Source: an uncultured Staphylococcaceae bacterium
Lineage (GTDB): Bacteria > Bacillota_I > Bacilli_A > RFN20 > CAG-826
Length of the DNA: 64,000 nt
Assembly (NCBI GenBank): GCA_964410505.1
Contig: CAYPGR010000003.1
Span: forward strand, 31,809-95,808
Direction of reading: 5' to 3'
Part shown: piece by piece, positions 35,394 through 47,451 of the stretch
How the letters are laid out: every line of letters starts with the position of its first letter
Numbering within the stretch: position 1 is the first letter of the stretch
Program-made: the position numbers and the translations under genes
Notes under the pieces: generated by a model
What the model was told of the DNA's origin: nothing
What the model saw: the letters and a program-made list of their open reading frames with translations, nothing else
The model's database searches: none

Positions 35394-36266
35394 TTATTCA
35401 ATTTCTTCGTAATAATATGAAGTATCAACGCCTTTTAAAAATAGTTCTCTATTGTCAATCTCATCAGTCAAAGCGTTTTTAAGTATTCTTTTAATGTCCT
35501 CATCACTATTTGGACTAAGAGTCATCGCATCTAAATATTCTTTTTTCTCAATTTTTGACCAATCAACACAAACGCTCAATTCTTTCTTAAAGATTAAATC
35601 GACCCAAATACGTGTTGCCCGACCATTACCTTCCATGAAAGGGTGTGCAACATTCATTTCAATATATTTATTAACAATTTCATCAAATGTTGATTGCGGC
35701 ATTTTTTCAATTTCTCCTAAAATTTGAGGTAGAAAATCACCATTTGCAAAAACAAAACCACCTTTAGAAATCGTTTTGGTCCTTATCTTTCCAGCGAATG
35801 GGTATAGACCTTCAAATAGAAACGCATGTATTTTTAGGAGGCTGATTGTTTTCCCAATTTCATCATCTTGAATAAGATTTGATTTGAACACTTCATAGGC
35901 TTTTCTTTTGCTTTGCTCATCAAGGGGATCTAACATTCCGGTTAGCCAATTTTGAACAGCTAATTTATGTTTGGATGGCATGATTGTTACAAATAGACGC
36001 ACACCTTCTTCATTCATAACATCCGATAGGTATTTCTTGTTATCAGCAGCATATAATTTCAGTTGTCCACAAAATGAAGTCAACTCAGGATGTCTCATTT
36101 TAAACATGTTCCAATATCTTCTAGCATCACTAGAATCTAAAAGCACTTTTGTTAAATCAACAGCGGAGTACCACCATTGAGATTTGTCATGATCCCAAAC
36201 AGCTCTAACTGGTTGATTATTAAAATAGCGAATGGAATGTTTTATCATAATTAGATGATATAACAA
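35394..36266 (-). CDS. Fic-family protein (AMPylase fold) with an N-terminal Bro-N-like domain
   Basis: Fic motif HPFMEGNGRATR. N-terminus IRYFNNQPVRAVWDHDKSQWWYSAVDLTKVL resembles Bro-N. The annotated start is a TTG; an ATG lies 18 nt downstream. Confidence 0.7.
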   Translation of the reverse strand: MLYHLIMIKHSIRYFNNQPVRAVWDHDKSQWWYSAVDLTKVLLDSSDARRYWNMFKMRHPELTSFCGQLKLYAADNKKYLSDVMNEEGVRLFVTIMPSKHKLAVQNWLTGMLDPLDEQSKRKAYEVFKSNLIQDDEIGKTISLLKIHAFLFEGLYPFAGKIRTKTISKGGFVFANGDFLPQILGEIEKMPQSTFDEIVNKYIEMNVAHPFMEGNGRATRIWVDLIFKKELSVCVDWSKIEKKEYLDAMTLSPNSDEDIKRILKNALTDEIDNRELFLKGVDTSYYYEEIE

Positions 36267-36300
36267 ACATTTTCAGTTGTCCACAAAATGTTGACAACTC

Positions 36301-36336
36301 AAATAAAAAAACAGGCCGATTGAATCAAGCCTGTTT
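36301..36336 (-). terminator. minus-strand intrinsic terminator upstream of fic
   Basis: AACAGGC-12 nt loop-GCCTGTT with TTTTTTTATTT on the minus strand. Confidence 0.45.
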
Positions 36337-36892
36337 AATCTAATGGAATTGTGTGACAGAAACGATTCAAAATCTAATTTGCGTTATTGAGAGTGATTGT
36401 GCTCCTCCCCTGGTCAACCTCCAATGTTTACAGGGGAACAATGTTGATTATGATGGCTATGACTATAGAAAATCGTTCTAGAGTCTAAAAAAATCCTCAA
36501 AAAAAGAAAAAAGTGTCCAAATAAAAAAAGGACTGATATTTATATATCAATCCAATCTCTCATTTTTGGAACCACACGTTTAGTTTGATACTTTGAATAC
36601 CCTAATAATTAACGAGTGAATACCTCTAGAACTATGATTCTTTTTTGACGCTATTTGACATAAGTAACGAATTTACTTTAAGGTGAACTGATACCAAAAA
36701 CCTGTACTTTAACTTCCTTGTAATTACTACATGGTTTATAGATAAATCACTCTATACTCATAAATCCTTTAGCTGTAAATGCCATCATATAAATGTAGGA
36801 AATTGACGGTCGAAAATGTAGGTTTCTTACGGGTATGCTTTTCTTTTTGATAAACTTTTTCTAACTCACGATTAGAAAGGTTTAGAAATTAA

Positions 36893-38095
36893 ATGAGAAG
36901 AGACTTATATGAAAGGATGGTATTTATGAAAAACCATGGTGAAGAGCCAAATTATGCCGAACTAGCTCGCCGCTATAACTGCGACTATCGGACGGTAAAA
37001 CGCTACTTTGAGGGTGACGGATCACTCAAAGAGAGAAAAAAGAATCCGTCGAAACTTGATAAATTTAAAGAAATTATTGAGGATAAACTGGAACTTGGTT
37101 GTACGTATGCTTCAATCTATCACTTTATTAAAAAGCTTGGTTATGACGGTAAGTATACAATTGTTCGTGAATATGCGAATAAAGTGATAGTGATCAAAAC
37201 AAAGAAAGCAACCGTTCGTTTTGAAACGATGCCAGGATTACAAGCACAAGTTGATTGGAAAGAACACCTAACCATGATTAGTCGTGAAGGCGAGGTCTTC
37301 ACCGTGAATATCTTCCTTCTTGTTCTTGGTTATTCACGTTTAAAATTTCTAAAGCTGACCCTTGACCGTAATCAAGACACTCTAAAGGAGGCGCTGGTAG
37401 AAGGGTTCAAGTATATAGGTGGAATTCCAAAAGAGATTCTCTTCGATAATATGAAAACTGTGATTGATCAAAGTCGTTCGCACTTCATGGACGCGGTTGT
37501 TAACGAGGACTTCTACGCCTTTAGTAAGGATATGGGTTTCGAGGTAATTGCTTGTCGCGCTTATCGCCCCGAAACAAAGGGAAAAGTTGAAGCACTCGCT
37601 AAGTTTACAAGCCGCCTTCAACCTTACAACCACGACTTTGTTTCCCTTGATGAATTAAATGAAATTGTCAAAATGGTCAATGATGACATAAATCACGAAA
37701 TATCCCAAGCGACAAACGAAATCCCTCTCACTCGTCATAAAAATGAAAAAGAATACTTATTACCCTTACCACGCGCTGAACTTCTTCTTAACTTCCTTAC
37801 TAAACCACTAACAAGAATCGTTACGAAGGAGTCACTCATTACGTATCAGAATAACAAATATTCCTTGCCCCCTTATTATATCGGAAAAACTTTAACGATT
37901 AAACCATCCGCTGTTAACCTCGATATTTTTGATAACGGTGTCCTCATTATGCGCCACCCCCTCTCAAATAAAAAATACAACTACAAAAAAGAACATTATA
38001 TTGAAATTCTTAAAAGTGATGCCCTCCCCTTTAAAAATGATGATGATATTAATCGCATCGCCGAAAAGAATTTAAAACTCTACGATAATCTCTAA
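36893..38095 (+). CDS. istA: IS21-family transposase IstA
   Basis: N-terminal HTH (ELARRYNCDYRTVKRYF). DDE region typical of IstA. Confidence 0.8.
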   Translation: MRRDLYERMVFMKNHGEEPNYAELARRYNCDYRTVKRYFEGDGSLKERKKNPSKLDKFKEIIEDKLELGCTYASIYHFIKKLGYDGKYTIVREYANKVIVIKTKKATVRFETMPGLQAQVDWKEHLTMISREGEVFTVNIFLLVLGYSRLKFLKLTLDRNQDTLKEALVEGFKYIGGIPKEILFDNMKTVIDQSRSHFMDAVVNEDFYAFSKDMGFEVIACRAYRPETKGKVEALAKFTSRLQPYNHDFVSLDELNEIVKMVNDDINHEISQATNEIPLTRHKNEKEYLLPLPRAELLLNFLTKPLTRIVTKESLITYQNNKYSLPPYYIGKTLTIKPSAVNLDIFDNGVLIMRHPLSNKKYNYKKEHYIEILKSDALPFKNDDDINRIAEKNLKLYDNL

Positions 38096-38112
38096 AAGGA
38101 AAGAACACCAAA

Positions 38113-38868
38113 ATGTCCCATTATAATCAACTTATTAATAATTTAGATAACCTTAAACTCTTGAAAATGCGCGAACTCCTTCCCGCTTATCTTGATGATG
38201 CTATTATTAAAAACAAATCATTTGTTGATATTTTTAAAGAACTAACCGATCAAGAAGTTGCTTTCCGCGAAGAACGCGCACGCCTTATTAATCTTACTAT
38301 TTCGCATTTCCCCTATCACAAACGTCTCGATGATTTTGATTTTGGCTACCAACCGTCCATTAATAAAACCCAGATTCTCGATCTTGCTTCGCTTCGCTTT
38401 GTTGAACAGGTTGAAAATATCCTCCTTATCGGCAACTCCGGTGTCGGCAAAACGCACCTTGCTACCGCGCTTGGCATTGAAGCTTCCAGTAAACGCGTCT
38501 CGACCTATTTTATCCACTTTAATACACTCATGCAAAAGTTTAAAGTCGCCGCGAGTGAAGGTACCGTCGACAAAGTTGTTAAACATTATCTAAAATACAA
38601 ACTGCTTATCGTCGACGAAGTTGGCTATCTTCCTGTTGATAAAGATGCCGCGAATGGTTTCTTTCAGCTTGTCGCCGCTCGCTATGAAAGACGACCGCTA
38701 ATTATTACATCAAATTTACCACTTTCTAAATGGGGCGATGTCTTTGGTGATTATACAATCGCTAACGCTATTATTGATCGCCTTGTTCATCATTCTCACA
38801 TTATCAAAATAACCGGGCAATCCTACCGCATCAAAGGTAAACTCCAATTTGAAAATGACGAGGACTAG
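38113..38868 (+). CDS. istB: IS21-family helper ATPase IstB
   Basis: Walker A GNSGVGKTHLA and Walker B LLIVDEVGY. 17-nt spacing after istA. Confidence 0.85.
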   Translation: MSHYNQLINNLDNLKLLKMRELLPAYLDDAIIKNKSFVDIFKELTDQEVAFREERARLINLTISHFPYHKRLDDFDFGYQPSINKTQILDLASLRFVEQVENILLIGNSGVGKTHLATALGIEASSKRVSTYFIHFNTLMQKFKVAASEGTVDKVVKHYLKYKLLIVDEVGYLPVDKDAANGFFQLVAARYERRPLIITSNLPLSKWGDVFGDYTIANAIIDRLVHHSHIIKITGQSYRIKGKLQFENDED

Positions 38869-39088
38869 TCCTCGTCATTTACCTACATTTTCAACCGCTA
38901 TAAACCAACATAAATTTCTTGACAATTACAAATACGCACAGTTGTATAGACCGTTGGAATGAGCCCCATTAGCAATAAGGCAAGTAGGAGGCGGTAATTT
39001 ATTTTTTTAATTGATTTAGATATATTGCGCATCATTAATCTTTATTTTAGCAATGTATTTAAAGGAAAAATAGATATTTTTTTTATAG

Positions 39089-40084
39089 TTATTCTTGATA
39101 TCCCAGTTTTATTAATAACCCACCAATTAATGGACAGATGTTATTTGAGTTAGTTAACAAACTATTAATACCCAATAAGGAACATATTTTATTTGCTCTG
39201 CGTTTATTAGTATCTATGTAGCAGGTGGATACTCTATCTACATGCAGGGTTATTTTCCACTTGTTATCTGTTGTTTGTTCCTCTTTAAACATAATTTGCT
39301 GTACTAGTTCATGGATTTTCAATTTATATAATATTTCTTTTCCATTATTCTCATTTAAGCCAATAAGAAAATCTTTAATGGCGATTTCTTCTTTATTCTC
39401 TATTATTTTCTCATGGGCTAGGCTAGCGGCTTGTAAGAGTGCATCTACTTTAGTATCAGAAATTCCCTCTATCTCATAATTGCCAAACTTTATTGTTGCC
39501 CTATAAAAACCGTTGCCCTTGTTCTCGAGGAGCTTAAAAGAATAGGTTAACTTATTATGTTTTTTTACTTTGCACCATCTTTTAACATATAAAAAAGAGG
39601 CAAACCCTTTGTAATTAATTTGTGTTCTATGAAACAACAAATTATTCACTAAATCGTAAAGCTTAATTTGATTAAAATTAGAATCAATAGCGATGGAGCC
39701 TACAACGCTCTCGAGTAAATCTCCTCTATAAGATCTTTGGATTTGTTCATTAGGGCTTAATCTAATATAGTGTTCGAACCCCAACTTATGTATGATAGAA
39801 GCGAGATTTTCATTCTCGACAATTAGTGATTTAAGAAATGTCAATTCTCCTGGATTAAATACGCTTTTTAGACCTTGACTATCATTTGACATTATTTGAT
39901 CAAATAGAATTTTTGTAACGTGATATTCGATGACTCTATCACCAATAAATTCTAGTACTTCAGAATTAAGCTCTTTTGATTCATTTGAAAATGAACTTCT
40001 CGTAAATGCTTGTCTCAAAAGCGCTTTATTTTTGAATTCGTAATCTAATTCTTTTTCAATTTGAATAATATCTTTTTCATCCAC
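39089..40084 (-). CDS. RNase III-family protein with two C-terminal dsRBD-like modules
   Basis: RNase III signature ALLRQAFTRSS...EVLEFIGDRV. Second catalytic segment GDLLESVVGSIAID. dsRBD-like segments GNGFYRATIKFGNYEIEGISDTKVDALLQAASLA and NKWKITLHVDRVSTCYIDTNKRRANKICSLLG. Confidence 0.55.
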   Translation of the reverse strand: MDEKDIIQIEKELDYEFKNKALLRQAFTRSSFSNESKELNSEVLEFIGDRVIEYHVTKILFDQIMSNDSQGLKSVFNPGELTFLKSLIVENENLASIIHKLGFEHYIRLSPNEQIQRSYRGDLLESVVGSIAIDSNFNQIKLYDLVNNLLFHRTQINYKGFASFLYVKRWCKVKKHNKLTYSFKLLENKGNGFYRATIKFGNYEIEGISDTKVDALLQAASLAHEKIIENKEEIAIKDFLIGLNENNGKEILYKLKIHELVQQIMFKEEQTTDNKWKITLHVDRVSTCYIDTNKRRANKICSLLGINSLLTNSNNICPLIGGLLIKLGYQE

Positions 40085-40184
40085 AATGACAAATCAATCC
40101 CCTAGAGTAAATTTATTATGATAAAACTATTTTTTAAGGCGACCTTTAAGAATCAACACTTTCGTTAATTTTAAGAACCATCAG

Positions 40185-41213
40185 TTAATTAGTAACTTCA
40201 GGTATCTCCGTTAGTCTTTTTCCATTAAATTTAAAATAAAGAGGGCCTTGATATGCTCCACTACTATTCACCTTTCCTAAACGAGTAAATAGTTCTCTTG
40301 TTAATGGCGATAAGTACCAGAGCCTACCTTCAAACATGACTTTTCGTTCATTTTCAACATAGGCAACAAAGGACTCGTTTTCAGCAAAGACAATCTCCGC
40401 CCCTTTTTTAATACCTCTTTTAAAGAAATTAAAACGCGTATTGACTTCTTCTCCATTCGTCTTATCTACCTGCTCATTGCCGCTATTTTTAATGTCTCTA
40501 GCAGCGCCAGATACAGAAACCTCAGTAATATCTTCAATGATTTTGACAAATTTAGATAATTTAATACCTTTTCCTATTTCAACATTCAAAAAATCTTTAC
40601 CTGTGGCTTCGAAGGCGAGATTTTTAATAGAATAATTTTTTAAATCATCTCCATACCGGATGCCAAACATATGCAGCATAGTCATTTGATAGCCATCAGG
40701 AGCCTCATTGTACATTTTTTTTAAAATTTCCAAGTATTCATTATAGGTCAAATGACCATTTCCTTTTGGGAGGTCTTGGAATAGAAAATTTTGTATTATT
40801 TTCTTGTTTTCTGGCCAGGCTTTAATATCCGTGAGTTGTATACTTTCAGAGTCAAAATCGAAAAATAAAAATGGGAGATTGTCTTTAGAAATCTTGAGTA
40901 AATTGTCAATATTCTTTTTTGTTTTTCGTTTGTTTTCATGGAATTTATTTGATTGCACGCTGGACATTTTCAGCAAAGTATTAAAATCGTTTGTATTTTC
41001 AATGCTAAAGTTGGAATCAAGAAAATGATTAATCGTTTCAAAAATAGCAATGTCATATATCCTATTTGATTTACTCTCCCTGATATATTTTTTGATAATT
41101 TGAGCAACTATATCATCATATGTAATTTTGACAGAATATGGATCCATCCTTTCGTCTATCAGGTCAATCAATGCACTAAAGACGTTTCTTTGGAGCGTAT
41201 TTGCGGTTTGCAT
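40185..41213 (-). CDS. hypothetical protein (342 aa), co-operonic partner of the SMC-like ATPase
   Basis: ORF. 1-nt gap to the upstream 119-aa gene. Confidence 0.4.
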   Translation of the reverse strand: MQTANTLQRNVFSALIDLIDERMDPYSVKITYDDIVAQIIKKYIRESKSNRIYDIAIFETINHFLDSNFSIENTNDFNTLLKMSSVQSNKFHENKRKTKKNIDNLLKISKDNLPFLFFDFDSESIQLTDIKAWPENKKIIQNFLFQDLPKGNGHLTYNEYLEILKKMYNEAPDGYQMTMLHMFGIRYGDDLKNYSIKNLAFEATGKDFLNVEIGKGIKLSKFVKIIEDITEVSVSGAARDIKNSGNEQVDKTNGEEVNTRFNFFKRGIKKGAEIVFAENESFVAYVENERKVMFEGRLWYLSPLTRELFTRLGKVNSSGAYQGPLYFKFNGKRLTEIPEVTN

Positions 41214-41214
41214 A

Positions 41215-41574
41215 TTAAATTATATCCACTATGGTCCAATCTTTATTATTATTGATGATATCCAGTATCTTATCTAAACCTATACTTATTACTGCTCTAA
41301 GTGCATAATCTTCATCTTTTACGTCATCATGATACAACCTAATTAACGTCCTAAAAAATTTGTCACCATCAAAATCTTCCATATGCCATTTGTTGTTTTT
41401 AAAACTGCCTTTGTATTCGTCTAGTGGCTTGTACTGGCTTAAATCAACCCTAGACAAGGCGTAACTAGCTGCAAATTTCGCTGTCGTCTTATCGTCATCA
41501 AAATATCCTTTTTCTTTAAGTTTGGCAATGCATTCATCATTGTCAACTGAAATGTTAATATCTGCTAGTGGCAT
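41215..41574 (-). CDS. small hypothetical protein (119 aa), co-operonic partner of the SMC-like ATPase
   Basis: ORF. 1-nt gaps on both sides. Confidence 0.4.
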   Translation of the reverse strand: MPLADINISVDNDECIAKLKEKGYFDDDKTTAKFAASYALSRVDLSQYKPLDEYKGSFKNNKWHMEDFDGDKFFRTLIRLYHDDVKDEDYALRAVISIGLDKILDIINNNKDWTIVDII

Positions 41575-41575
41575 A

Positions 41576-43600
41576 TTATTTCTCCCTTACATTGGTATTG
41601 AAGGAATTTCCTTCTTGATATATCTCTAATTCCTTTATTAGTTTATTACCTAAAATTGCTCTGGTTTTACTAATATCAATTTTGTCGTTATGAATCAGCA
41701 AAATCAACTGTGGTGCGATTTCATTAAATGTTTTTATTATGTTGTTTGTGTATGAATTTTGAAGAACTGAAAAGGCTGCATCAAAAAATATGGTGCCAAA
41801 TAATTGAGAGTTGTGGTTTAAACCAAAAATTAATGATAATGCTAATAAAGTATTGTATCCCGTTCCGGGAATGGGCATAATTGAATCGTCCTTCATTACA
41901 ATTTTCATGCGATAGTTTTCATTTATATGAATTTGTTTAATATCTTGATTTTCGCCCTCGATAAATTTCATGAAAATATCACTTGAAGAAATTTGAACTT
42001 TTTGTCTCATGGTAGAGATAAACTGTTCTTTAGAATTTTTGTAGGTCGTTCGCACATGATCAATTGTCTTAAGTTCATTTTCAAGATCACTAGTATCAAA
42101 ATCAGTTCCCATTTTCTTTATTAGAGCTGTAATTTTTCCATTTAATCTTTCATAATCTTTAATCAGGTTTTCATTTAGCGTTGTCTCCCATTTGCTGATT
42201 AGATTTTCTGACTGAGTTTTTTTCATAAATGCGTCCTTAAAATAGGTGTTTAAATCTGAGCCGCTTGAACTTAATTCATCACGTGTTTTTTTAGCATCGT
42301 TAAGAAGACTATGTCTTTTATTTTCGTACATGATTAAATCTTCTTGGTAACTTCTTAGCGTTTTGTCGTTAAAAAATGTCAGTTCAGAAAGTATTTTAGT
42401 AAATTTGACTATTTTATTGTTGGAATATTCATATGAAGTCATCTCGTCGCTCGATAAGGAACTTTGAGAGATTTTAAACTTGATTTCATCAACCTTGGAT
42501 TTAAAGAAAACTATTTTTTCTAAGGGTAAGTGACTACCACAATACTGACAAGTATCATTATTCAGTAGATCCTCATATGTTTTTAATTCAACTCTAAATT
42601 TATTAATTATTTGGTGTCGGTCGGAGATAAGAGAGAATTTTTCTTCCATCGTTTTAATCTCTTGTATAATTTTCGAATATTGCAGAGATTTTATATTTTC
42701 TTTTAGAAAGTTTTTAATGTCCGTTTTTCTTGATTTAATCAATGCTTCAGTGGAATTAATCTCTTTTTCAATTTTTTCCAAGTATTTGTAGGCAGCGATT
42801 TTTCTACCATTAGCGTCAAGATCTTCATTTAAACGAGTTAACTCCTCTTTTTCCTTTTCAATTTTCCTGTTTAAATCGTCAATCTCTTTCTTTTTTAAAC
42901 TCAATTCTTGTTGCTTATCCTGCAATTCTTTCTTGTCATTTTCATTTTTTGAATTTCTATTTACGATGGAAGAAATTTGATAATAGGTTTGACTATAAAG
43001 ACTGTCTAAACGAGCAATGATTCTATCAATAAATGGGGTTCCGATAATCTTGTTAATAGCTTCTTTAATTCTTCTATTTTCAGTGCCAGTAGCACTATCA
43101 TTGTTGAGAATTTCAATGTATTTTTCAATGTTTTCTCCATCAAAAAGCATAAATTCAGAGATGTCTTTTGGAATTATTTTATCAATGATATCTTGTGTAT
43201 ATTTCTCTGATTGATATTGACCATCTTCTTGCAATGTCATCGTCATCTTAAAATCATTGTCTGATTTAGGTTTTCCCATCACGTTTGAGTCAAAATTATA
43301 CTCTCTTTTCATCTTGTAAGTTTTACCATTATAGATAAACTCCATATATGCATAGAATCTATAATCTTCATTCTCGTAAGCAATTTTGTTTATAGATAAT
43401 GAAATTTTATAATTTGGGTCGTCGGGATTGTCTTTAAGATAGTTAAAAAGCAAAAACCGAATACCATTGATAAATGAAGTCTTTCCAGTATTATTATTAC
43501 CAAAAATTATAGAGGTTCCTTTATTAGATCCTAAATCAAATTCCTTGACTCCATAGTAGGGAATAAAGTTTTTGAATGATATCTTGAGTATCTGTATCAT
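41576..43600 (-). CDS. SMC/Rad50-like ABC ATPase with a long coiled-coil and a central CxxC hook-like motif
   Basis: N-terminal Walker A GNNNTGKTS. Long K/E-rich helical middle region. CQYC near the midpoint. C-terminal Walker B / D-loop IFFDAAFS. Confidence 0.7.
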   Translation of the reverse strand: MIQILKISFKNFIPYYGVKEFDLGSNKGTSIIFGNNNTGKTSFINGIRFLLFNYLKDNPDDPNYKISLSINKIAYENEDYRFYAYMEFIYNGKTYKMKREYNFDSNVMGKPKSDNDFKMTMTLQEDGQYQSEKYTQDIIDKIIPKDISEFMLFDGENIEKYIEILNNDSATGTENRRIKEAINKIIGTPFIDRIIARLDSLYSQTYYQISSIVNRNSKNENDKKELQDKQQELSLKKKEIDDLNRKIEKEKEELTRLNEDLDANGRKIAAYKYLEKIEKEINSTEALIKSRKTDIKNFLKENIKSLQYSKIIQEIKTMEEKFSLISDRHQIINKFRVELKTYEDLLNNDTCQYCGSHLPLEKIVFFKSKVDEIKFKISQSSLSSDEMTSYEYSNNKIVKFTKILSELTFFNDKTLRSYQEDLIMYENKRHSLLNDAKKTRDELSSSGSDLNTYFKDAFMKKTQSENLISKWETTLNENLIKDYERLNGKITALIKKMGTDFDTSDLENELKTIDHVRTTYKNSKEQFISTMRQKVQISSSDIFMKFIEGENQDIKQIHINENYRMKIVMKDDSIMPIPGTGYNTLLALSLIFGLNHNSQLFGTIFFDAAFSVLQNSYTNNIIKTFNEIAPQLILLIHNDKIDISKTRAILGNKLIKELEIYQEGNSFNTNVREK

Positions 43601-43794
43601 ACGTTTGACCTTTTCTTGTTGTAAGAATCAATTAGTTGCTTAATGCTATTGTTTTTTTCTTGATCGGAGGCATTATTAAGTTCAATATCTAGAATATTTG
43701 TCAACAGCAAAAAATAATTTTCATCAGCATTTGACATTTCCTCCAAAGTTTCTTTAATGTTTTTAATCGTTTTTTCATTCATCTTCAAAACCAT
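43597..43794 (-). CDS. small ORF (65 aa), translationally coupled between the helicase and the SMC-like ATPase genes
   Basis: ATGA overlap with the downstream gene start. Overlaps the upstream gene's stop by 20 nt. Confidence 0.3.
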   Translation of the reverse strand: MVLKMNEKTIKNIKETLEEMSNADENYFLLLTNILDIELNNASDQEKNNSIKQLIDSYNKKRSNV

Positions 43795-46132
43795 CCTCTT
43801 CGTTATTTATTTTTTCAATATCTAAATTGTTTTTTATTGCCAATTCCTCAATACTCAACATAGATGTGGCACTATTAAATGAAGCCTTGGCAAAAATTAT
43901 TGCTCTTTTCAACTCGTACTTTAAAAATGTGAATTCATCTCCGGAAGATTCCAGATTTTCAGGCGAAACAATCGCATCAAAAATATGGGCAAACTGTTTG
44001 TTTTTATGCTTTCTTAATACCCTCCCACGTCTTTGAATAAATTGTCTCTCATTTTGACTTGAGGCCAGCACTAAGGCATGGTCTATGCTGGGAATGTCAA
44101 CTCCCTCATCCAAACAATTAATTGACAGTAAAACTCCTCCATTTCTCTCGAAAACTTCAAGAACTTGGTTATGTAACCCACTCTTTGAATGATAAATAAA
44201 CAAGTCGTTATGAAACAATCTACTAAGTTTTGATTCAAGTTGGTTCTTGATTTCTTCTAACTGTTCAATGTCATCACAGTATATTAACCATCTTTGACCT
44301 GGAAGATAATGGTCTTCAATAATCTTAAGGGTCAACAAAATTTTAGCCTTAGCTTTTTTGATAATTTTTGATCTTTGGATTAGCCATTGCTTCATAATTG
44401 AATCAGATAAAATATCGAAAATTGAGTATTTTTGAGATTTGAGCAATGCAAATCTGCGAGCAATTTTGGTTGATAGTTCTTGATATTCAACGCCCTCTAT
44501 AAGATCAAGTTCAACTTTTTGGGGGTAATAAAGATAATTGCATAAAGATTTATCTCTAATAGCATTTTCTAAAGAATAAGGATAGTCGATAACCTTTCCA
44601 AAAAAATCAAAGATCTTTTTTGTTCCAATTGAGTCTCTATACCTTTTAGGAGTAGCGCTCAACCCTATCTTTGAACCCACATTGATGGTTAATAAATTAC
44701 TGTATTTTTCCGATCCAGAATTATGAACTTCATCAATCACCAGCAACAAATGATTTCCTTGGCAAAGTAAGTTAATAAAATTGTTATTGCTAGCTGTTTG
44801 GATTGTACTTAAAATAATTTTTCTTTTGCCTGTAATTGAGGAAGCAATCTTGAGATTTGTAGTGCTGTCATTTCCATTCCCATATTGATACAAGAATACA
44901 TCGTCGCCGAATACTTTTTCAATTTCTTCTTTCCACTGTTCAAATAAAATGCTCCTTGGCACAATTATAATTGGGATTTGATCATGGAGATAAATGGCAT
45001 CTCTAATTGCGCAAAAAGCAGTAAATGTTTTTCCGCTTCCCGTGGCCATTTCAAAAATTCCGACTCGATTGTTTTTAACCCAATTATCAAGAATGGTCTC
45101 TTGGTAATTCCTTATCTTACGGCGGTTTAGCCCCGGCTCTGCCGCCCATCTAATTACTGTAATTTCTCGCTCGTCCAATGTTTGATTTGTGTAGTTGGAC
45201 TTGAGAACTATTTTTTGATTTCCATAAGAAATAGCTTGAATTGTGTGTTTATCATTATCTAATACAAGTATTTTATGGTCATCAACAAGTTCAATGACTA
45301 CATCATTAAGACTAGAACAATGTAAAACCCCAATTTTAGCAACTTCGCCAAGAACCAAATCAGAATATTGTATGTCAATTCTTGGCGATTTTTCATCAAT
45401 ATGTCCTAACTCAATTGTGACCTCATCGATTAATTCACGGACATTTTTGTCGTTACTGAGCGCACGAAATTTATCTTTCGTAACTTTCGGAATTTCAAAA
45501 GTATGAATACCTTTTTCATCTCCTCGCCAAATGTTATTAAATCTTTCTTTGTAAATACTAACTCTTTTAATCTCTGATGCATCACCCCAGGAAGTATTAA
45601 CCTCAAAGACTTCACTATTGCCAAATTCTGAGACACCTTTGTAAGTTTCATTGATTGATCCACCAAAACTAACTGTGTTCCCATTTACATCATGAAATAA
45701 ACCAACTTTATCGTGAAGCAGTTTGAATGCCAAAGGGTTGTCGCCAAAAACCGCCATTTTTATTTCAAGTATTCCCAATGAGATTAGATTAGAAAGTAAA
45801 GTTGTAGTTTTAGGATATTGCTTGCTCATTTCATCAATAACTTCATTGAATTTATTTGATGAGGAATCTAGTGATTTAAAATACCCGGAAATTATGGCGT
45901 CATAATCCTCGTCAGTTATTATAGGGGAGCATACAATACGTATTTTTCCATTATTTTGAACAAAATCTTTTAAGGCATCCTTGATAACAAGGAAAACAGA
46001 ACTGCCAAAATAGCCCGTGATTCTATCATATTTAATTGAAGATTCTAAACAGGGTTTATAAAAATCTCGATAGATTTCATTTCTAGTTTTGTAATATATT
46101 TGGTGAAAATTATGCTTGTCGAGGGTTTGCAT
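43775..46132 (-). CDS. restriction-type enzyme: N-terminal PLD-family (HKD) nuclease fused to an SF2 (type III res-like) helicase
   Basis: PLD motif LLHDKVGLFHD...GGSINET. Helicase motif I MATGSGKTFTA, motif II LLVIDEVHN, motif III LSATPKR and motif VI QRRGRVLR. The start is assigned to MQTLDK, 7 nt after the methyltransferase stop. Confidence 0.7.
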   Translation of the reverse strand: MQTLDKHNFHQIYYKTRNEIYRDFYKPCLESSIKYDRITGYFGSSVFLVIKDALKDFVQNNGKIRIVCSPIITDEDYDAIISGYFKSLDSSSNKFNEVIDEMSKQYPKTTTLLSNLISLGILEIKMAVFGDNPLAFKLLHDKVGLFHDVNGNTVSFGGSINETYKGVSEFGNSEVFEVNTSWGDASEIKRVSIYKERFNNIWRGDEKGIHTFEIPKVTKDKFRALSNDKNVRELIDEVTIELGHIDEKSPRIDIQYSDLVLGEVAKIGVLHCSSLNDVVIELVDDHKILVLDNDKHTIQAISYGNQKIVLKSNYTNQTLDEREITVIRWAAEPGLNRRKIRNYQETILDNWVKNNRVGIFEMATGSGKTFTAFCAIRDAIYLHDQIPIIIVPRSILFEQWKEEIEKVFGDDVFLYQYGNGNDSTTNLKIASSITGKRKIILSTIQTASNNNFINLLCQGNHLLLVIDEVHNSGSEKYSNLLTINVGSKIGLSATPKRYRDSIGTKKIFDFFGKVIDYPYSLENAIRDKSLCNYLYYPQKVELDLIEGVEYQELSTKIARRFALLKSQKYSIFDILSDSIMKQWLIQRSKIIKKAKAKILLTLKIIEDHYLPGQRWLIYCDDIEQLEEIKNQLESKLSRLFHNDLFIYHSKSGLHNQVLEVFERNGGVLLSINCLDEGVDIPSIDHALVLASSQNERQFIQRRGRVLRKHKNKQFAHIFDAIVSPENLESSGDEFTFLKYELKRAIIFAKASFNSATSMLSIEELAIKNNLDIEKINNEEDGFEDE

Positions 46133-46139
46133 TTTCGTC

Positions 46140-47006
46140 CTACACTGGATTCCGATTTGAAATATTATGAATAGACATCTGACAAAACTCTTCAGAAATT
46201 TCAAAACCGATAAATTTCCTGTTATTATTAAGCGCGACCACTCCAGTTGTTCCACTTCCAGTCCATGGATCAAGTACGATATCGCCCTCCTGCGTACATG
46301 CTCGAATATACCTTTCGGGCAAGTAATTCGGTTGGACAGCTTGATGATTGACCACTTTTCCTGATACTGCACCACTAATCACATTTATCGGTAATGCACC
46401 TAGAGGGTTAGGAAAAATTTTCTTTTCTTTTGTGACATATTGCAATTTATTCTGCCTTGGTTTATAAATCACATTCTCATAGGATTTGATAGAAGATTCT
46501 TTGTAAGGTCTTCTAATCTGATCTATATTGATAACCCATTTTGAGGATTTAGAAAACCACAGGTTATACTCATAAGCATCAATCGTCGCAACTCTTACTC
46601 CTGTGGGAACAGGATTTGTTTTTGCCCAGATTTCAATATCAACACAATACAATTTTAGTACCTTTTTCATATGAATCATTAGTTCTTCGATGACTAACGA
46701 TCGCTCCGATGATGTGGTTTTTGTTCCTTGAACTCGATTTGATTTGACATTAATGACAATAAATCCATCATCAGTTAATTTTGGAATTAAAAACTTAATA
46801 AATGGGCTTATTTCTTTTATATAGTTTTCAATCTTCCATGTTCTATAGTTTCTTTTTGCATTTGGATAAGGAGGTGACCCATAAACTAATTTTATGGACT
46901 TATCTTTCAGATGCTTTATGAGTTTTACACCGTCTCCGTGGGTAACAGAAAAATTACGACTATCTAAATCTTCGTATATGTTGATAGTAGTATTTTGGTG
47001 TAACAT
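46140..47006 (-). CDS. beta-class DNA methyltransferase (N4-cytosine / N6-adenine type)
   Basis: Motif IV GSPPYPN near the N-terminus and motif I LDPWTGSGTTGVVA near the C-terminus. Confidence 0.8.
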   Translation of the reverse strand: MLHQNTTINIYEDLDSRNFSVTHGDGVKLIKHLKDKSIKLVYGSPPYPNAKRNYRTWKIENYIKEISPFIKFLIPKLTDDGFIVINVKSNRVQGTKTTSSERSLVIEELMIHMKKVLKLYCVDIEIWAKTNPVPTGVRVATIDAYEYNLWFSKSSKWVINIDQIRRPYKESSIKSYENVIYKPRQNKLQYVTKEKKIFPNPLGALPINVISGAVSGKVVNHQAVQPNYLPERYIRACTQEGDIVLDPWTGSGTTGVVALNNNRKFIGFEISEEFCQMSIHNISNRNPV

Positions 47007-47364
47007 TTAATTAATACTCCCCACTTTATATAAAAATCTTTTTATGTAATTCAAATTATACCATCATACACGGTATTAAAGAACTGTATACTTATCAAAT
47101 TGATGATTTTGAGTGGTGAATTAAATAGAAAACACAAAATAAACAACAAAAATAAACGCACATTGCACAATGGGACAGTTAATATTCTTACTAATTAACC
47201 CTCTTTTTCGCACTGTTTATTAAGAAATTGAAAAAAATACTCTTTCTATTTAATCTTTGATATCTAACGAATCATAAGAAATATATTATACTTGAATATC
47301 CTAAGAAAAAACCCTTATATCTCAACCTTATTAGGTCCAATATCTTGGGGTATCTTCATTAGTT

Positions 47365-47451
47365 TGGTGCCTCCGGTCGGACTCGAACCGACACAGTATC
47401 GCTACTATTGGATTTTGAGTCCAACGCGTCTACCAATTTCACCACGGAGGC
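47365..47451 (-). tRNA. tRNA-Leu (anticodon CAA), long variable arm, CCA encoded
   Basis: Reverse complement is GCCTCCGTGGTGAAATTGGTAGACGCGTTGGACTCAAAATCCAATAGTAGCGATACTGTGTCGGTTCGAGTCCGACCGGAGGCACCA. Confidence 0.85.

What the first reader, a model, noticed from the sequence alone, without database searches (positions are those of the whole stretch)
39089..47451. AT-rich island at the 3' end of tRNA-Leu(CAA), capped on the far side by an IS21 element, packed with nuclease, helicase, methyltransferase and ATPase genes
The tRNA-Leu gene is on the minus strand, so its 3' end (47365) points into this block. This is the classic integration geometry for genomic islands. The block (39089–47006) is visibly more A+T-rich than the flanking ald/msr/liv genes; this was judged by eye, not computed. 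It contains no housekeeping genes. An IS21 copy (36751–38950) sits at the distal end. No integrase is present, so the island is probably old or was mobilised in trans. Its contents are the R-M-like pair, an SMC-like ATPase module and an RNase III-like gene, each described separately below.
Basis: partly seen in the sequence, partly recalled or inferred. Interest (0 to 1): 0.7.

Follow-up and report, generated by a model that had tools for sequence, protein, structure and literature searches.

The report
Defence island beside a tRNA-Leu gene
The AT-rich block next to tRNA-Leu is a real, strain-specific insertion at a site where related bacteria carry other cargo, and it mainly holds one six-gene, methylase-linked Pbe-type anti-phage system, a kind already predicted in the literature.

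Summary
tRNA-Leu(CAA) lies at 47365-47451 on the minus strand. The block to its 3' side has 31.5% G+C against 41.4 ± 1.25% for same-sized backbone windows (z about -8).

In six contigs from close relatives, homology to the window stops exactly at the tRNA 3' end. Beyond that point they carry different cargo, or only a terminator and spacer. A spacer motif that sits 163-164 nt after the tRNA in four relatives lies 10.7 kb away in the window, about 150 nt beyond the IS21. The island is therefore about 36.77-47.36 kb.

The interpretation needs correcting in four ways:
- The "R-M pair" and the "SMC module" are one operon: SPPY methyltransferase, PbeA (HKD nuclease plus SF2 helicase), PbeB, PbeC (CxC ABC ATPase), PbeD (DndE fold), and a winged-helix sixth gene. 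This is the methylase-linked form of PbeABCD/CxC-DndE.
- The RNase III-like gene is a neighbour, not a component.
- The sixth gene is a recombinant chimera.
- IS21 has no target duplication and truncates a transporter gene.

No integrase or tRNA-derived repeat was found, so cassette exchange at a hotspot fits better than a decayed integrase island. This is a new member of a known kind, of modest interest.

The parts
47365..47451 (-). tRNA-Leu(CAA). Its 3' end at 47365 is the proximal boundary of the island.
   Evidence: ARAGORN; Rfam tRNA, 57.2 bits. Homology of six relatives' contigs ends at 47365 or 47361.
47007..47364 (-). Island-specific leader between the tRNA and the methyltransferase gene. 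It replaces the ancestral terminator and spacer from the first base after CCA.
   Evidence: Post-tRNA sequences compared. The ancestral terminator is absent from the window. No convincing small ORF. Promoter-like matches are no more frequent than in shuffled sequence.
46140..47006 (-). Beta-class DNA methyltransferase. Motif IV is SPPY and precedes motif I, DPWxGSGTTG. Predicted to make N4-methylcytosine.
   Evidence: Pfam N6_N4_Mtase, 1.2e-42; PADLOC MTase_II. YGSPPYPNAKRNYRTW is invariant in 4 loci. It is always the first gene of the operon.
43775..46132 (-). PbeA: an HKD (phospholipase D-type) nuclease domain fused to an SF2 helicase, 785 aa.
   Evidence: PADLOC PbeA, 3.5e-183. NCBIfam dnd_restrict_1, 2.4e-96, and phospholipD_antiphage, 6.4e-23. 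H140/K142/D148, GSINE, MATGSGKT, DEVH and QRRGRVLR are invariant. The start at M82 agrees with gene calls.
43597..43794 (-). PbeB-like small protein, 65 aa (or 60 aa from MNEKTI). It overlaps the end of pbeA and the start of pbeC.
   Evidence: Called in L081. A 64-70 aa gene sits at the same position in 4 loci, with a conserved NxKxIxNIK...LDIEL pattern. No family match. PbeB is 66 aa in Xiong 2019.
41576..43600 (-). PbeC: a DndD-like CxC-clade ABC ATPase with a coiled coil and a CxxC zinc hook at its apex.
   Evidence: PADLOC PbeC, 4.1e-79, and DndD, 5.9e-29. NCBIfam DndD, 5.3e-18. Walker A GNNNTGKT and C351/C354 are invariant.
41215..41574 (-). PbeD: a DndE-fold protein (tandem ribbon-helix-helix), 119 aa.
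40185..41213 (-). Sixth operon gene, 342 aa. It has a winged-helix N-terminal module plus HTH_73 (residues 1-227). After a disordered linker it is fused to an 89-aa C-terminal domain that in a close relative belongs to a T5orf172 protein. The recombination junction is at about 40452-40465.
39089..40084 (-). RNase III-like gene with two dsRBD-like modules. It is a neighbour of the operon, not a component, and is shared at 96% identity with a relative that lacks the Pbe cassette.
   Evidence: Pfam RNase III, 5e-15, and dsrm. TIGR02191 scores 103.6, below its 166 cutoff. Catalytic E42/E45/D49/D122/E125 are invariant. Genomic contexts. Absent downstream of the operon in L088 and L089.
38931..39035 (-). 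The 5' remnant (about 35 codons) of a MatE-like transporter gene, cut by IS21.
   Evidence: tblastn of the 438-aa L087 protein: residues 1-41, 80% identity. Weak Pfam MatE match. Homology to L086/L087 ends at 38930.
36774..38930 (+). IS21-family element (istA and istB, 50-nt imperfect inverted repeats) at the distal end of the island. It has no target-site duplication.
   Evidence: Pfam rve, Mu-transpos_C_2 and IstB_IS21, 3.7e-74. Inverted repeats. Flanks CCTTTAGC and AATACGCA differ, and there is a single copy in the window.
36537..36700 (-). Remnant of the ancestral spacer that follows tRNA-Leu in relatives. It includes the motif GGTATTCACTCGTTAATTATT at 36604-36624. This is the distal landmark of the island.
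   Evidence: The motif lies +163 or +164 nt after the tRNA in L002, L095, L099 and L101, in the same orientation as in the window. Chance expectation in the window is 0.03. L093 has three direct copies.

Best explanation
The segment from about 36.77 kb to 47.364 kb is accessory DNA. It occupies a variable insertion hotspot immediately 3' of tRNA-Leu(CAA) in an uncultured Bacilli lineage.

**Main cargo (40.2-47.0 kb).** This is a single six-gene operon, the methyltransferase-linked form of the PbeABCD / CxC-ABC-ATPase-DndE defence system.

**Inferred mechanism, by analogy with published work.**
- The SPPY beta-class methyltransferase marks host DNA, probably as N4-methylcytosine.
- PbeC (Rad50/DndD-like ABC ATPase with a zinc hook) and PbeD (DndE-fold ribbon-helix-helix protein) scan DNA for the cognate unmodified sites.
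- PbeA (HKD nuclease plus SF2 helicase/translocase) then attacks incoming phage or plasmid DNA, or blocks its replication.
- The small PbeB and the winged-helix sixth protein act as regulator or adaptor.

**How the cassette arrived (inferred).** It came by recombinational replacement within the hotspot, not by a resident integrase.
- Its distal junction lies inside a coding sequence. This made an in-frame chimera of the sixth gene with the 3' end of a resident T5orf172-type gene.
- The RNase III-like gene and the MatE-like gene belong to the older layer of the island.
- IS21 later cut the MatE-like gene and deleted the DNA between it and the ancestral spacer.

**Shown versus inferred.**
- Shown: boundaries, composition, gene families, operon conservation, the chimera junction and variability among relatives.
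- Inferred: methylation specificity, defence activity, order of events and mode of transfer.
For: **Composition.** G+C is 31.5% against 41.4 ± 1.25% (z = -8). Tetranucleotide distance is 0.39 against 0.11 ± 0.017.

**Proximal boundary.** L096-L101 keep thiolase...liv...msr-ald-tRNA-Leu synteny at 80-92% DNA identity. They lose homology exactly at the tRNA 3' end.

**What follows the tRNA in relatives.**
- L096/L097: an SF1 helicase plus type I R-M.
- L098: IS256, MatE and a Zn peptidase.
- L094: an IS3.
- L093: 11 kb of acyltransferases and other genes.
- L002, L099, L100, L101: only a terminator and spacer.

**Distal boundary.** The 21-nt spacer motif lies +163/164 nt after the tRNA in four relatives and +10.74 kb in the window, in the same orientation.

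**Operon.**
- PADLOC gives PbeA 3.5e-183 and PbeC 4.1e-79.
- Catalytic motifs are invariant.
- Gene order MTase-A-B-C-D-HTH_73 is the same in L088, L089/90/91 and L092.
- Genes are separated by 1-7 nt or overlap.
- The L088 cassette is also AT-rich relative to its flanks, 0.318 against 0.44.

**Literature.**
- PbeABCD defends against virus SNJ1. 155 of 320 solitary pbeAC pairs lie near MTase genes (PMC6459918).
- PbeABCD is the CxC ABC-ATPase-DndE system. Some members pair with permuted cytosine-N4 methylases in place of phosphorothioate (PT) modification (PMC10853773).

**Recombination junction.** L086/L087 are 95.9% identical to the window only over 38930-40452. The fused architecture is unique among 1.84 billion representative proteins.

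**Independent support.** A Logan contig is 100% identical over 38888-47394.
Against: - No experiment supports defence activity for any methylase-linked Pbe system. This holds for the held literature searched.
- The sixth protein has lost the C-terminal 170-300 residues present in its orthologues, so the system here may be impaired.
- The distal landmark is a short motif within only about 65%-identical surrounding sequence. It is repeated three times in L093, so it is not strictly unique.
- The genes beyond it (Fic, ABC-2 transporter, ChrA, SLFN helicase; G+C 35.7%) are also not syntenic with L101. The variable region may therefore extend to about 29.1 kb.
- The window comes from a metagenome-assembled genome. 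The join across IS21 to the left flank has no independent support.
- The nearest relatives are about 91-92% identical in DNA, not the same strain, so some differences could be older rearrangements.
Confidence: 0.8

Rival explanations
1. This is a classical integrase-mobilised tRNA island. A tyrosine-integrase element integrated into the 3' end of tRNA-Leu and later lost its integrase and distal att repeat, perhaps through the IS21-associated deletion.
For: - The insertion begins at the first base after the tRNA's CCA.
- The window and the unrelated island in L096/L097 both start with AACT.
- The IS21 has deleted DNA at the distal end, which could have held an integrase or att site.
- L093 shows direct repeats of 115-130 nt at segment borders, as expected from site-specific accretion.
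Against: - No integrase or recombinase lies in 29-47 kb, and none was found among the genes I scanned downstream of the tRNA in L093, L096 or L098.
- The 64-kb window has no repeat of the last 20-25 nt of the tRNA at up to 3 mismatches.
- The repeats in L093 derive from the spacer, not the tRNA.
- The Pbe cassette's distal junction lies inside an ORF shared at 96% identity with a relative. That is the signature of homologous or illegitimate recombination, not of att recombination.
Confidence: 0.2
2. The block holds three independent systems: a type II/III-like R-M pair, a separate SMC-like ATPase module, and an RNase III gene. They are merely adjacent in a defence island.
For: - Pfam alone names only N6_N4_Mtase, ResIII/Helicase_C and AAA_23.
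- Defence islands do commonly juxtapose unrelated systems.
- The RNase III-like gene is indeed separate. It sits after a 100-nt gap and is not conserved with the operon.
Against: - Six genes keep the same order in four independent loci from different samples.
- Their spacing is 1-7 nt or overlapping.
- PADLOC assigns the helicase and the ATPase to PbeA and PbeC of one system.
- The 119-aa gene has the DndE fold that pairs with this ATPase clade (PMC10853773).
Confidence: 0.05
3. This is not horizontally acquired DNA. It is a native, fast-evolving AT-rich region of this lineage, or a chimeric MAG contig that joins unrelated pieces at repeats.
For: - The window comes from a MAG.
- IS21 is a repeat at which assemblers misjoin, and it lacks a target duplication.
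- Distant relatives (Ald 78-85% identical) show general loss of synteny after the tRNA.
Against: - An independent 8.5-kb Logan contig matches 38888-47394 at 100%, including the tRNA junction.
- Relatives 91-92% identical in the flank lack the block.
- Deviation in composition and tetranucleotide signature is extreme.
- The homologous cassette in L088 is equally AT-rich inside a 44% G+C context.
Confidence: 0.05

Closest known systems
PbeABCD, also called the CxC-clade ABC-ATPase-DndE counter-invader system (Xiong et al. 2019, PMC6459918; Aravind-lab reappraisal 2024, PMC10853773)
   Same: - PbeA: an HKD nuclease plus SF2 helicase.
- PbeB: a protein of about 65 aa.
- PbeC: a DndD-like ABC ATPase with a CxxC hook.
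- PbeD: a small DndE-fold protein.
- The gene order A-B-C-D and tight operon packing also match.
   Different: - No dndCDEA phosphorothioation genes are found in the island, or next to the cassette in L088, L089/L090 or L092.
- Instead, a beta-class SPPY methyltransferase is always the first gene. Both papers predicted this subset; neither tested it.
- A conserved sixth gene (winged helix plus HTH_73) follows pbeD. It is not one of the four Pbe genes and is not the MTaX1 protein the 2024 paper mentions.
- In this window that sixth gene is a truncated chimera.
Core defence hotspots / tRNA-adjacent defence islands (for example cDHS1/2 of Pseudomonas aeruginosa, PMC10250203)
   Same: - A conserved core flank (thiolase...liv...msr-ald-tRNA-Leu) is followed by different cargo in different relatives.
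- Two of the occupants are defence systems: Pbe here, and an SF1 helicase plus type I R-M in L096.
- No dedicated integrase is seen.
   Different: - It is defined here from only about 8 metagenomic contigs of an uncultured lineage, not from hundreds of genomes.
- Several occupants are not defence genes: L093 acyltransferases, and L098 IS256 plus MatE.
- The distal core flank is identified only by a short spacer motif.
Type I/III ATP-dependent restriction-modification systems, and helicase-methylase-ATPase systems such as Hma
   Same: All combine a methyltransferase for self-marking with an SF2 translocase-nuclease. An ATPase is also part of the system.
   Different: - There is no HsdS or Mod specificity subunit.
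- The nuclease is of the HKD type, not the PD-(D/E)xK type.
- Recognition is predicted to come from the PbeC-PbeD pair.
- The PADLOC HmaA match is only 6.2e-07, against 3.5e-183 for PbeA.
IS21 family insertion sequences
   Same: It has IstA (an rve-domain transposase) and IstB (an AAA+ helper) in tandem, with terminal inverted repeats that begin TGT and end ACA.
   Different: It has no target-site duplication, and the interrupted gene is not continued on the other side. This implies an adjacent deletion or recombination between two IS copies.

Membership tests
PbeABCD / CxC ABC-ATPase-DndE system | PbeA: HKD (PLD-type) nuclease fused to an SF2 helicase | tested here: met
   PADLOC PbeA, 3.5e-183. 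NCBIfam phospholipD_antiphage, 6.4e-23, and dnd_restrict_1, 2.4e-96. The HxK...D...GSxN motif and helicase motifs I, II and VI are invariant in 4 orthologues.
PbeABCD / CxC ABC-ATPase-DndE system | PbeB: a small (about 66 aa), fast-evolving protein encoded between pbeA and pbeC | tested here: met
   A 65-aa ORF at 43597-43794. A 64-70 aa gene occupies the same position in 4 loci at 38-56% identity. It has no family match, as expected.
PbeABCD / CxC ABC-ATPase-DndE system | PbeC: a DndD-related ABC ATPase with a Cys-x-x-Cys type zinc hook at the coiled-coil apex | tested here: met
   PADLOC PbeC, 4.1e-79, and DndD, 5.9e-29. Walker A is present. C351 and C354 are invariant at the midpoint of the 674-aa protein. 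Zinc binding itself was not tested.
PbeABCD / CxC ABC-ATPase-DndE system | PbeD: a DndE cognate (tandem ribbon-helix-helix) encoded next to the ATPase | tested here: met
   [not shown]
PbeABCD / CxC ABC-ATPase-DndE system | Linkage to dndCDEA and dependence on phosphorothioate modification, as in the experimentally characterised archaeal system | tested here: not met
   No Dnd modification gene was found in the island or in the homologous loci. A methyltransferase takes that position. This places it in the methylase-linked subset that was predicted but not tested (PMC6459918, PMC10853773).
PbeABCD / CxC ABC-ATPase-DndE system | Protection against viruses or plasmids | not testable with these tools
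   This needs an experiment.
Integrase-mobilised tRNA genomic island | Insertion at the 3' end of a tRNA gene, deviant composition, absence from relatives | tested here: met
Integrase-mobilised tRNA genomic island | An integrase gene next to the tRNA | tested here: not met
   The only recombinase-type genes in 29-47.4 kb are the IS21 istA and istB.
Integrase-mobilised tRNA genomic island | A direct repeat of the tRNA 3' end at the distal border | tested here: not met
   No second copy of the last 20 or 25 nt was found in 64 kb at up to 3 mismatches, and no short blast hit beyond chance. IS21-associated deletion could have removed one.
Core defence hotspot | The same core-gene flanks with different cargo, including defence systems, in different genomes | tested here: inconclusive
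   The proximal flank and variable cargo are clear. The distal flank is seen only as a 21-nt motif plus about 65%-identical spacer. Only 2 of about 5 occupants are defence systems. Sampling is small.
Beta-class N4-cytosine DNA methyltransferase | Motif IV S-P-P-Y/F lies N-terminal to the AdoMet motif I (the circularly permuted order) | tested here: met
   GSPPY at residues 43-47 and DPWTGSGTTG at residues 246-255, both invariant. That SPPY indicates m4C rather than m6A rests on my knowledge of the family. The modified base was not determined.
IS21 family | istA plus istB, terminal inverted repeats, and a 4-8 bp target-site duplication | tested here: inconclusive
   The genes and inverted repeats are present. 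The target duplication is absent: the flanks are CCTTTAGC and AATACGCA.
Bacterial RNase III (rnc equivalog) | Catalytic signature plus a dsRBD, with a score above the TIGR02191 cutoff | tested here: not met
   The catalytic residues are conserved, but the score is 103.6 against a cutoff of 166.25. The protein is 331 aa with a second dsRBD-like module. It is a paralogous family, not rnc.

The most novel reading that the evidence does not exclude
**Proposed reading.** The 331-aa RNase III-like protein is itself an anti-phage or abortive-infection effector, or a dedicated accessory to neighbouring systems. It would not be a passive flanking gene.

**What the evidence shows.**
- It has an intact catalytic site and two dsRBD-like modules, and its composition is island-like.
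- Its close homologues sit immediately downstream of at least four unrelated cassettes, at least three of them defence-type:
  - the Pbe system here;
  - Eco57I-UvrD-SLFN helicase in L085;
  - a T5orf172 gene in L086/L087.

**Further unresolved point.** The conserved 45-nt element after tRNA-Leu could be a recombination site for integrase-free cassette exchange.
Probability: 0.15. Interest if true: 0.6.

Novelty: new member of a known kind. Interest (0 to 1): 0.35.

Why it matters
- The finding adds a cleanly delimited, naturally occurring example of the methyltransferase-linked Pbe/CxC-DndE system. Two papers predicted this variant and, as far as the held literature shows, nobody has tested it.
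- It has a defined six-gene composition, including a conserved winged-helix sixth gene, that could be cloned directly.
- It documents a tRNA-Leu(CAA) insertion hotspot in an uncultured Bacilli lineage related to the Izemoplasmatales. It also gives a concrete case of cassette replacement whose junction lies inside a gene.
- None of this changes current understanding.

Tried and rejected
**Searches that found nothing.**
- megablast of 39000-47400 against the plasmid and phage collections: no match.
- PbeC against JGI metagenome contigs (single protein) and against viral contigs (alignment): no relatives.
- Exact-protein look-ups of Ald: no record, twice.
- PADLOC, Pfam, NCBIfam and PDB sequence searches for the 119-aa and 65-aa proteins: nothing. 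The fold search was needed to place the 119-aa protein.
- Repeats of the tRNA 3' end: none.
- The ancestral post-tRNA terminator in the window: none beyond chance.
- Rfam on the island, its flanks and the conserved spacer element: only the tRNA.
- RNA folding of the spacer element: z = -0.18, so an RNA role is not supported.
- Promoter and terminator scans: counts equal to shuffled sequence, so they are uninformative.

**Ideas considered and dropped.**
- Distant relatives from GTDB (Ald 78-85% identical) were too rearranged to serve as an empty-site test. The closer Logan and ENA contigs found through Ald homologues were decisive instead.
- The Hma, type I/III R-M and DISARM/BREX labels were dropped. 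PADLOC matches to them were weak next to PbeA and PbeC.
- The break in Logan contig L081, exactly 30 nt into the tRNA, could reflect strain heterogeneity. It could equally come from shared tRNA 3' ends, so it is not used as evidence.

Full report
**1. The observation**

ARAGORN and Rfam place tRNA-Leu(CAA) at 47365-47451 on the minus strand, so its 3' end faces lower coordinates.
- 39089-47364 has 31.5% G+C. For 293 windows of the same length taken outside 29.1-47.4 kb, the mean is 41.4%, the sd 1.25 and the minimum 38.1. That gives z = -8.0.
- The tetranucleotide distance from the backbone is 0.39, against 0.11 ± 0.017 (maximum 0.15).
- GC3 of the island genes is 0.27-0.31, against 0.38-0.41 for ald, msr and their neighbours (profiles).

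The IS21 element is real. It carries istA (rve, Mu-transpos_C_2) at 36893-38095 and istB (IstB_IS21, 3.7e-74) at 38113-38868. Fifty-nucleotide imperfect inverted repeats set its ends at 36774 and 38930. No integrase is present anywhere in 29-47 kb.

**2. What the genes are**

All genes between 39.1 and 47.0 kb are on the minus strand. PADLOC assigns the 785-aa helicase to PbeA (3.5e-183) and the 674-aa ATPase to PbeC (4.1e-79; DndD 5.9e-29). NCBIfam agrees, with dnd_restrict_1 at 2.4e-96, phospholipD_antiphage at 6.4e-23 and DndD at 5.3e-18.

- **PbeA start.** The long ORF that seemed to overlap the methyltransferase gene is an artefact of an upstream GTG. Gene calls on an identical contig, and alignment with orthologues, put the start at M82 (46132).
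- **PbeB.** A 65-aa gene at 43597-43794 lies between pbeA and pbeC.
- **Agreement with the literature.** Xiong et al. 2019 describe PbeA, PbeB (66 aa), PbeC and PbeD (152 aa) in that order (PMC6459918). The 2024 reappraisal equates them with an HKD-SF2 nuclease-helicase, a small disordered protein, a CxC-clade ABC ATPase and a DndE cognate (PMC10853773). The window matches both descriptions.
- **Catalytic motifs.** In four orthologues the following are invariant: HxK...D...GSINE, MATGSGKT, DEVH and QRRGRVLR in PbeA; Walker A and C351/C354 (CxxC, mid-protein) in PbeC; and GSPPY followed later by DPWxGSGTTG in the methyltransferase.
- **Methyltransferase type.** That motif order is the permuted beta-class order. 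From my knowledge of the family, SPPY indicates N4-cytosine methylation.

**3. One operon, not three modules**

Homologues of the 119-aa protein are rare: five clusters among 5.8 billion. Every contig that carries one has the same six genes in the same order: N6_N4 MTase, PbeA (784-792 aa), a 64-70 aa gene, PbeC (673-678 aa), the 119-aa gene and an HTH_73 protein. This holds for L088, L089/L090/L091 and L092.
- In the window the genes are 1-7 nt apart or overlap.
- None of these loci carries dnd genes, and the methyltransferase is always first.
- In L088 the cassette has 31.8% G+C inside 44% flanks and sits beside phage-type ANT and Lin1244_N genes. The cassette therefore looks foreign there too.

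Both papers noted that many Pbe/CxC systems lie next to methyltransferases. The 2024 paper specifies permuted cytosine-N4 methylases. Both suggested that methylation can replace phosphorothioation. I found no experimental test of this in the held literature.

**4. The sixth gene is a chimera, and the RNase III-like gene is a neighbour**

The sixth protein is 342 aa here but 512 and 638 aa in L088 and L089. The proteins align only over residues 1 to about 235.
- **Origin of the last 89 codons.** Two Logan contigs, L086 and L087, are 95.9% identical to the window over exactly 38930-40452 and nowhere else. That stretch holds the last 89 codons of the sixth gene, the RNase III-like gene, and the first ~35 codons of a 438-aa MatE-like gene. 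In those contigs the 89 codons are the C-terminus of a 213-aa T5orf172 protein.
- **Uniqueness.** A full HMMER scan of 1.84 billion representatives found proteins matching the N-terminal part, the HTH_73 part or the C-terminal domain. None other than the query itself spans both halves.
- **Conclusion.** The distal junction of the Pbe cassette lies at about 40452-40465, inside a coding sequence and within a linker. This is the signature of recombinational replacement.

Homologues of the RNase III-like protein (41-59% identical) sit downstream of quite different cassettes:
- Eco57I-UvrD-SLFN helicase in L085.
- A T5orf172 gene in L086/L087.
- An MPN635_N gene in L084.

No such gene follows the Pbe operon in L088 or L089. 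It is therefore not a component of the system. Its catalytic residues are conserved, but it scores below the rnc equivalog cutoff.

**5. Is it an island, and where does it end?**

GTDB relatives (Ald 78-85% identical) keep msr-ald-tRNA-Leu but are too rearranged to be informative. Ald homologues at 93-97% identity led to six contigs, L096-L101.
- **Proximal boundary.** These contigs are syntenic with the window from the thiolase gene through liv, msr and ald to tRNA-Leu, at 80-92% DNA identity. In every one the homology stops at window position 47365 or 47361.
- **Unoccupied state.** After the tRNA, L002, L099, L100 and L101 have a terminator (TATTGAAACGTAAGGTTTGATAC...CCTTTTTTT) and then a spacer.
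- **Occupied states.**
  - L094 has an IS3 inside that terminator.
  - L098 has IS256, MatE and a Zn peptidase.
  - L096/L097 have an SF1 helicase and a type I R-M system starting at the first base.
  - L093 has 11 kb of acyltransferases and unknown genes.
- **Distal boundary.** The ancestral terminator is not found in the window. However, a 21-nt spacer motif, GGTATTCAYTCGTTAATTATT, lies +163/164 nt after the tRNA in L002, L095, L099 and L101. The same motif lies at 36604-36624 in the window, in the same orientation, 10.74 kb from the tRNA and about 150 nt beyond the left end of the IS21. Its chance expectation in the window is 0.03.
- **Extent.** Surrounding similarity is only about 65% over 88 nt. 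The island is therefore about 36.77-47.364 kb, with the IS21 as its last element.
- **L093.** It contains three direct copies of 115-130 nt of this spacer, delimiting segments of 5.3, 6.2 and 1.9 kb. This suggests repeated insertion at the site. It also shows the motif is not strictly single-copy.

**6. The IS21**

Its flanks (CCTTTAGC and AATACGCA) are not a target duplication. On its right it abuts codon ~35 of the MatE-like gene, and the rest of that gene is absent from the window. On its left it abuts the ancestral spacer. The simplest reading is an IS-associated deletion, or recombination between two IS copies, that removed the distal part of the older island. This is inference. The window comes from a MAG. 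The independent Logan contig covers only 38888-47394, so a misjoin at the IS cannot be excluded.

**7. Mechanism and mode of acquisition**

*Inferred function.*
- The methyltransferase marks self DNA.
- PbeC and PbeD scan for unmodified sites.
- PbeA translocates and cuts foreign DNA, or blocks its replication.
- PbeB and the winged-helix protein regulate or bridge the complex.

Only the archaeal phosphorothioate-dependent system has been tested. In that system viral DNA replication was blocked without detectable cleavage, while the 2024 analysis argues for cleavage by the HKD domain. The truncated sixth gene may impair the copy in this window.

*Acquisition.* No integrase and no tRNA-derived repeat were found. 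No integrase was found in the occupied sites of L093, L096 or L098 either, within the sequence held and the genes scanned. One junction lies inside an ORF. Together these favour exchange by recombination at a hotspot, comparable in concept to core defence hotspots (PMC10250203), over a decayed integrase island. The latter remains possible because the IS21 event deleted distal DNA.

**8. Surroundings**

Left of the spacer motif lie:
- A Fic protein (PADLOC PDC-S04, 1e-117).
- An ABC-2 transporter.
- A chromate transporter.

The nrd genes follow at 26-29 kb. This stretch has 35.7% G+C and is not syntenic with L101. The variable region may therefore extend to about 29.1 kb.

**9. Verdict**

The contents were misparsed: they are one methylase-linked Pbe/CxC-DndE operon plus an unrelated RNase III-like neighbour. 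This is a new member of a known, bioinformatically predicted kind. It has a well-resolved natural history but no surprising biology.

Noticed in passing
[not shown]
   Followed up: partly
window 36604-36624 (remnant 36537-36700); L002 11423-11443; L099 11420-11440; L101 1737-1757; L093 571-591, 2446-2466, 8645-8665: A conserved non-coding element, TTTACTCGTTAAGGATACATAGGGGGTATTCACTCGTTAATTATT, contains two ACTCGTTAA repeats. It lies about 163 nt after tRNA-Leu in genomes whose coding flanks are only 72-92% identical. It has no Rfam match and no RNA-fold signal. In L093 it occurs as three direct repeats of 115-130 nt bordering inserted segments. It may be an operator or a recombination site.
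   Followed up: partly
window 40185-41213, junction about 40452-40465: An in-frame chimeric gene. The N-terminal 250 residues come from the Pbe-linked HTH_73 protein. They are joined through a disordered linker to an 89-aa C-terminal domain found in hundreds of other architectures, including T5orf172 proteins. This combination was not seen in any other representative protein.
   Followed up: yes
[not shown]
   Followed up: partly
window 35394-36266, and repeats at 36050-36087 and 36264-36301: A Fic/DOC protein matches the PADLOC defence candidate PDC-S04 at 1e-117. A 38-nt direct repeat with an internal palindrome (AGTTGTCCACAAAATG..GACAACT) lies at the gene's 5' end and just upstream. It looks like an operator, and the annotated TTG start may be too far upstream.
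   Followed up: no
window 36774-38930 and 38931-39035: The IS21 has no target-site duplication, and next to it is a 35-codon stump of a MatE-like gene. This implies an adjacent deletion or recombination between IS copies. It is also the one join in this MAG contig with no independent support.
   Followed up: partly
L081 (= window 38888-47394): An independent Logan contig is 100% identical to the island. It starts exactly 30 nt (k-1) inside the tRNA 3' end and stops 43 nt inside the IS21 inverted repeat. So the assembly graph branches at both island borders in that sample.
   Followed up: partly
L096 11481-21104: In a relative with 97% identical Ald, the same tRNA-Leu site carries a 914-aa SF1 helicase followed by a type I R-M system: an HsdM-Eco57I fusion, HsdS and HsdR. 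Like the window's island, this one begins with AACT directly after the tRNA.
   Followed up: partly
window 43775-46132, PbeA residues about 250-320: A poorly conserved segment lies between the HKD and helicase domains. In the L088 orthologue it gives a weak match to an Ig-like family (Ig_NUP210_5th). It may be an inserted beta-sandwich domain.
   Followed up: no
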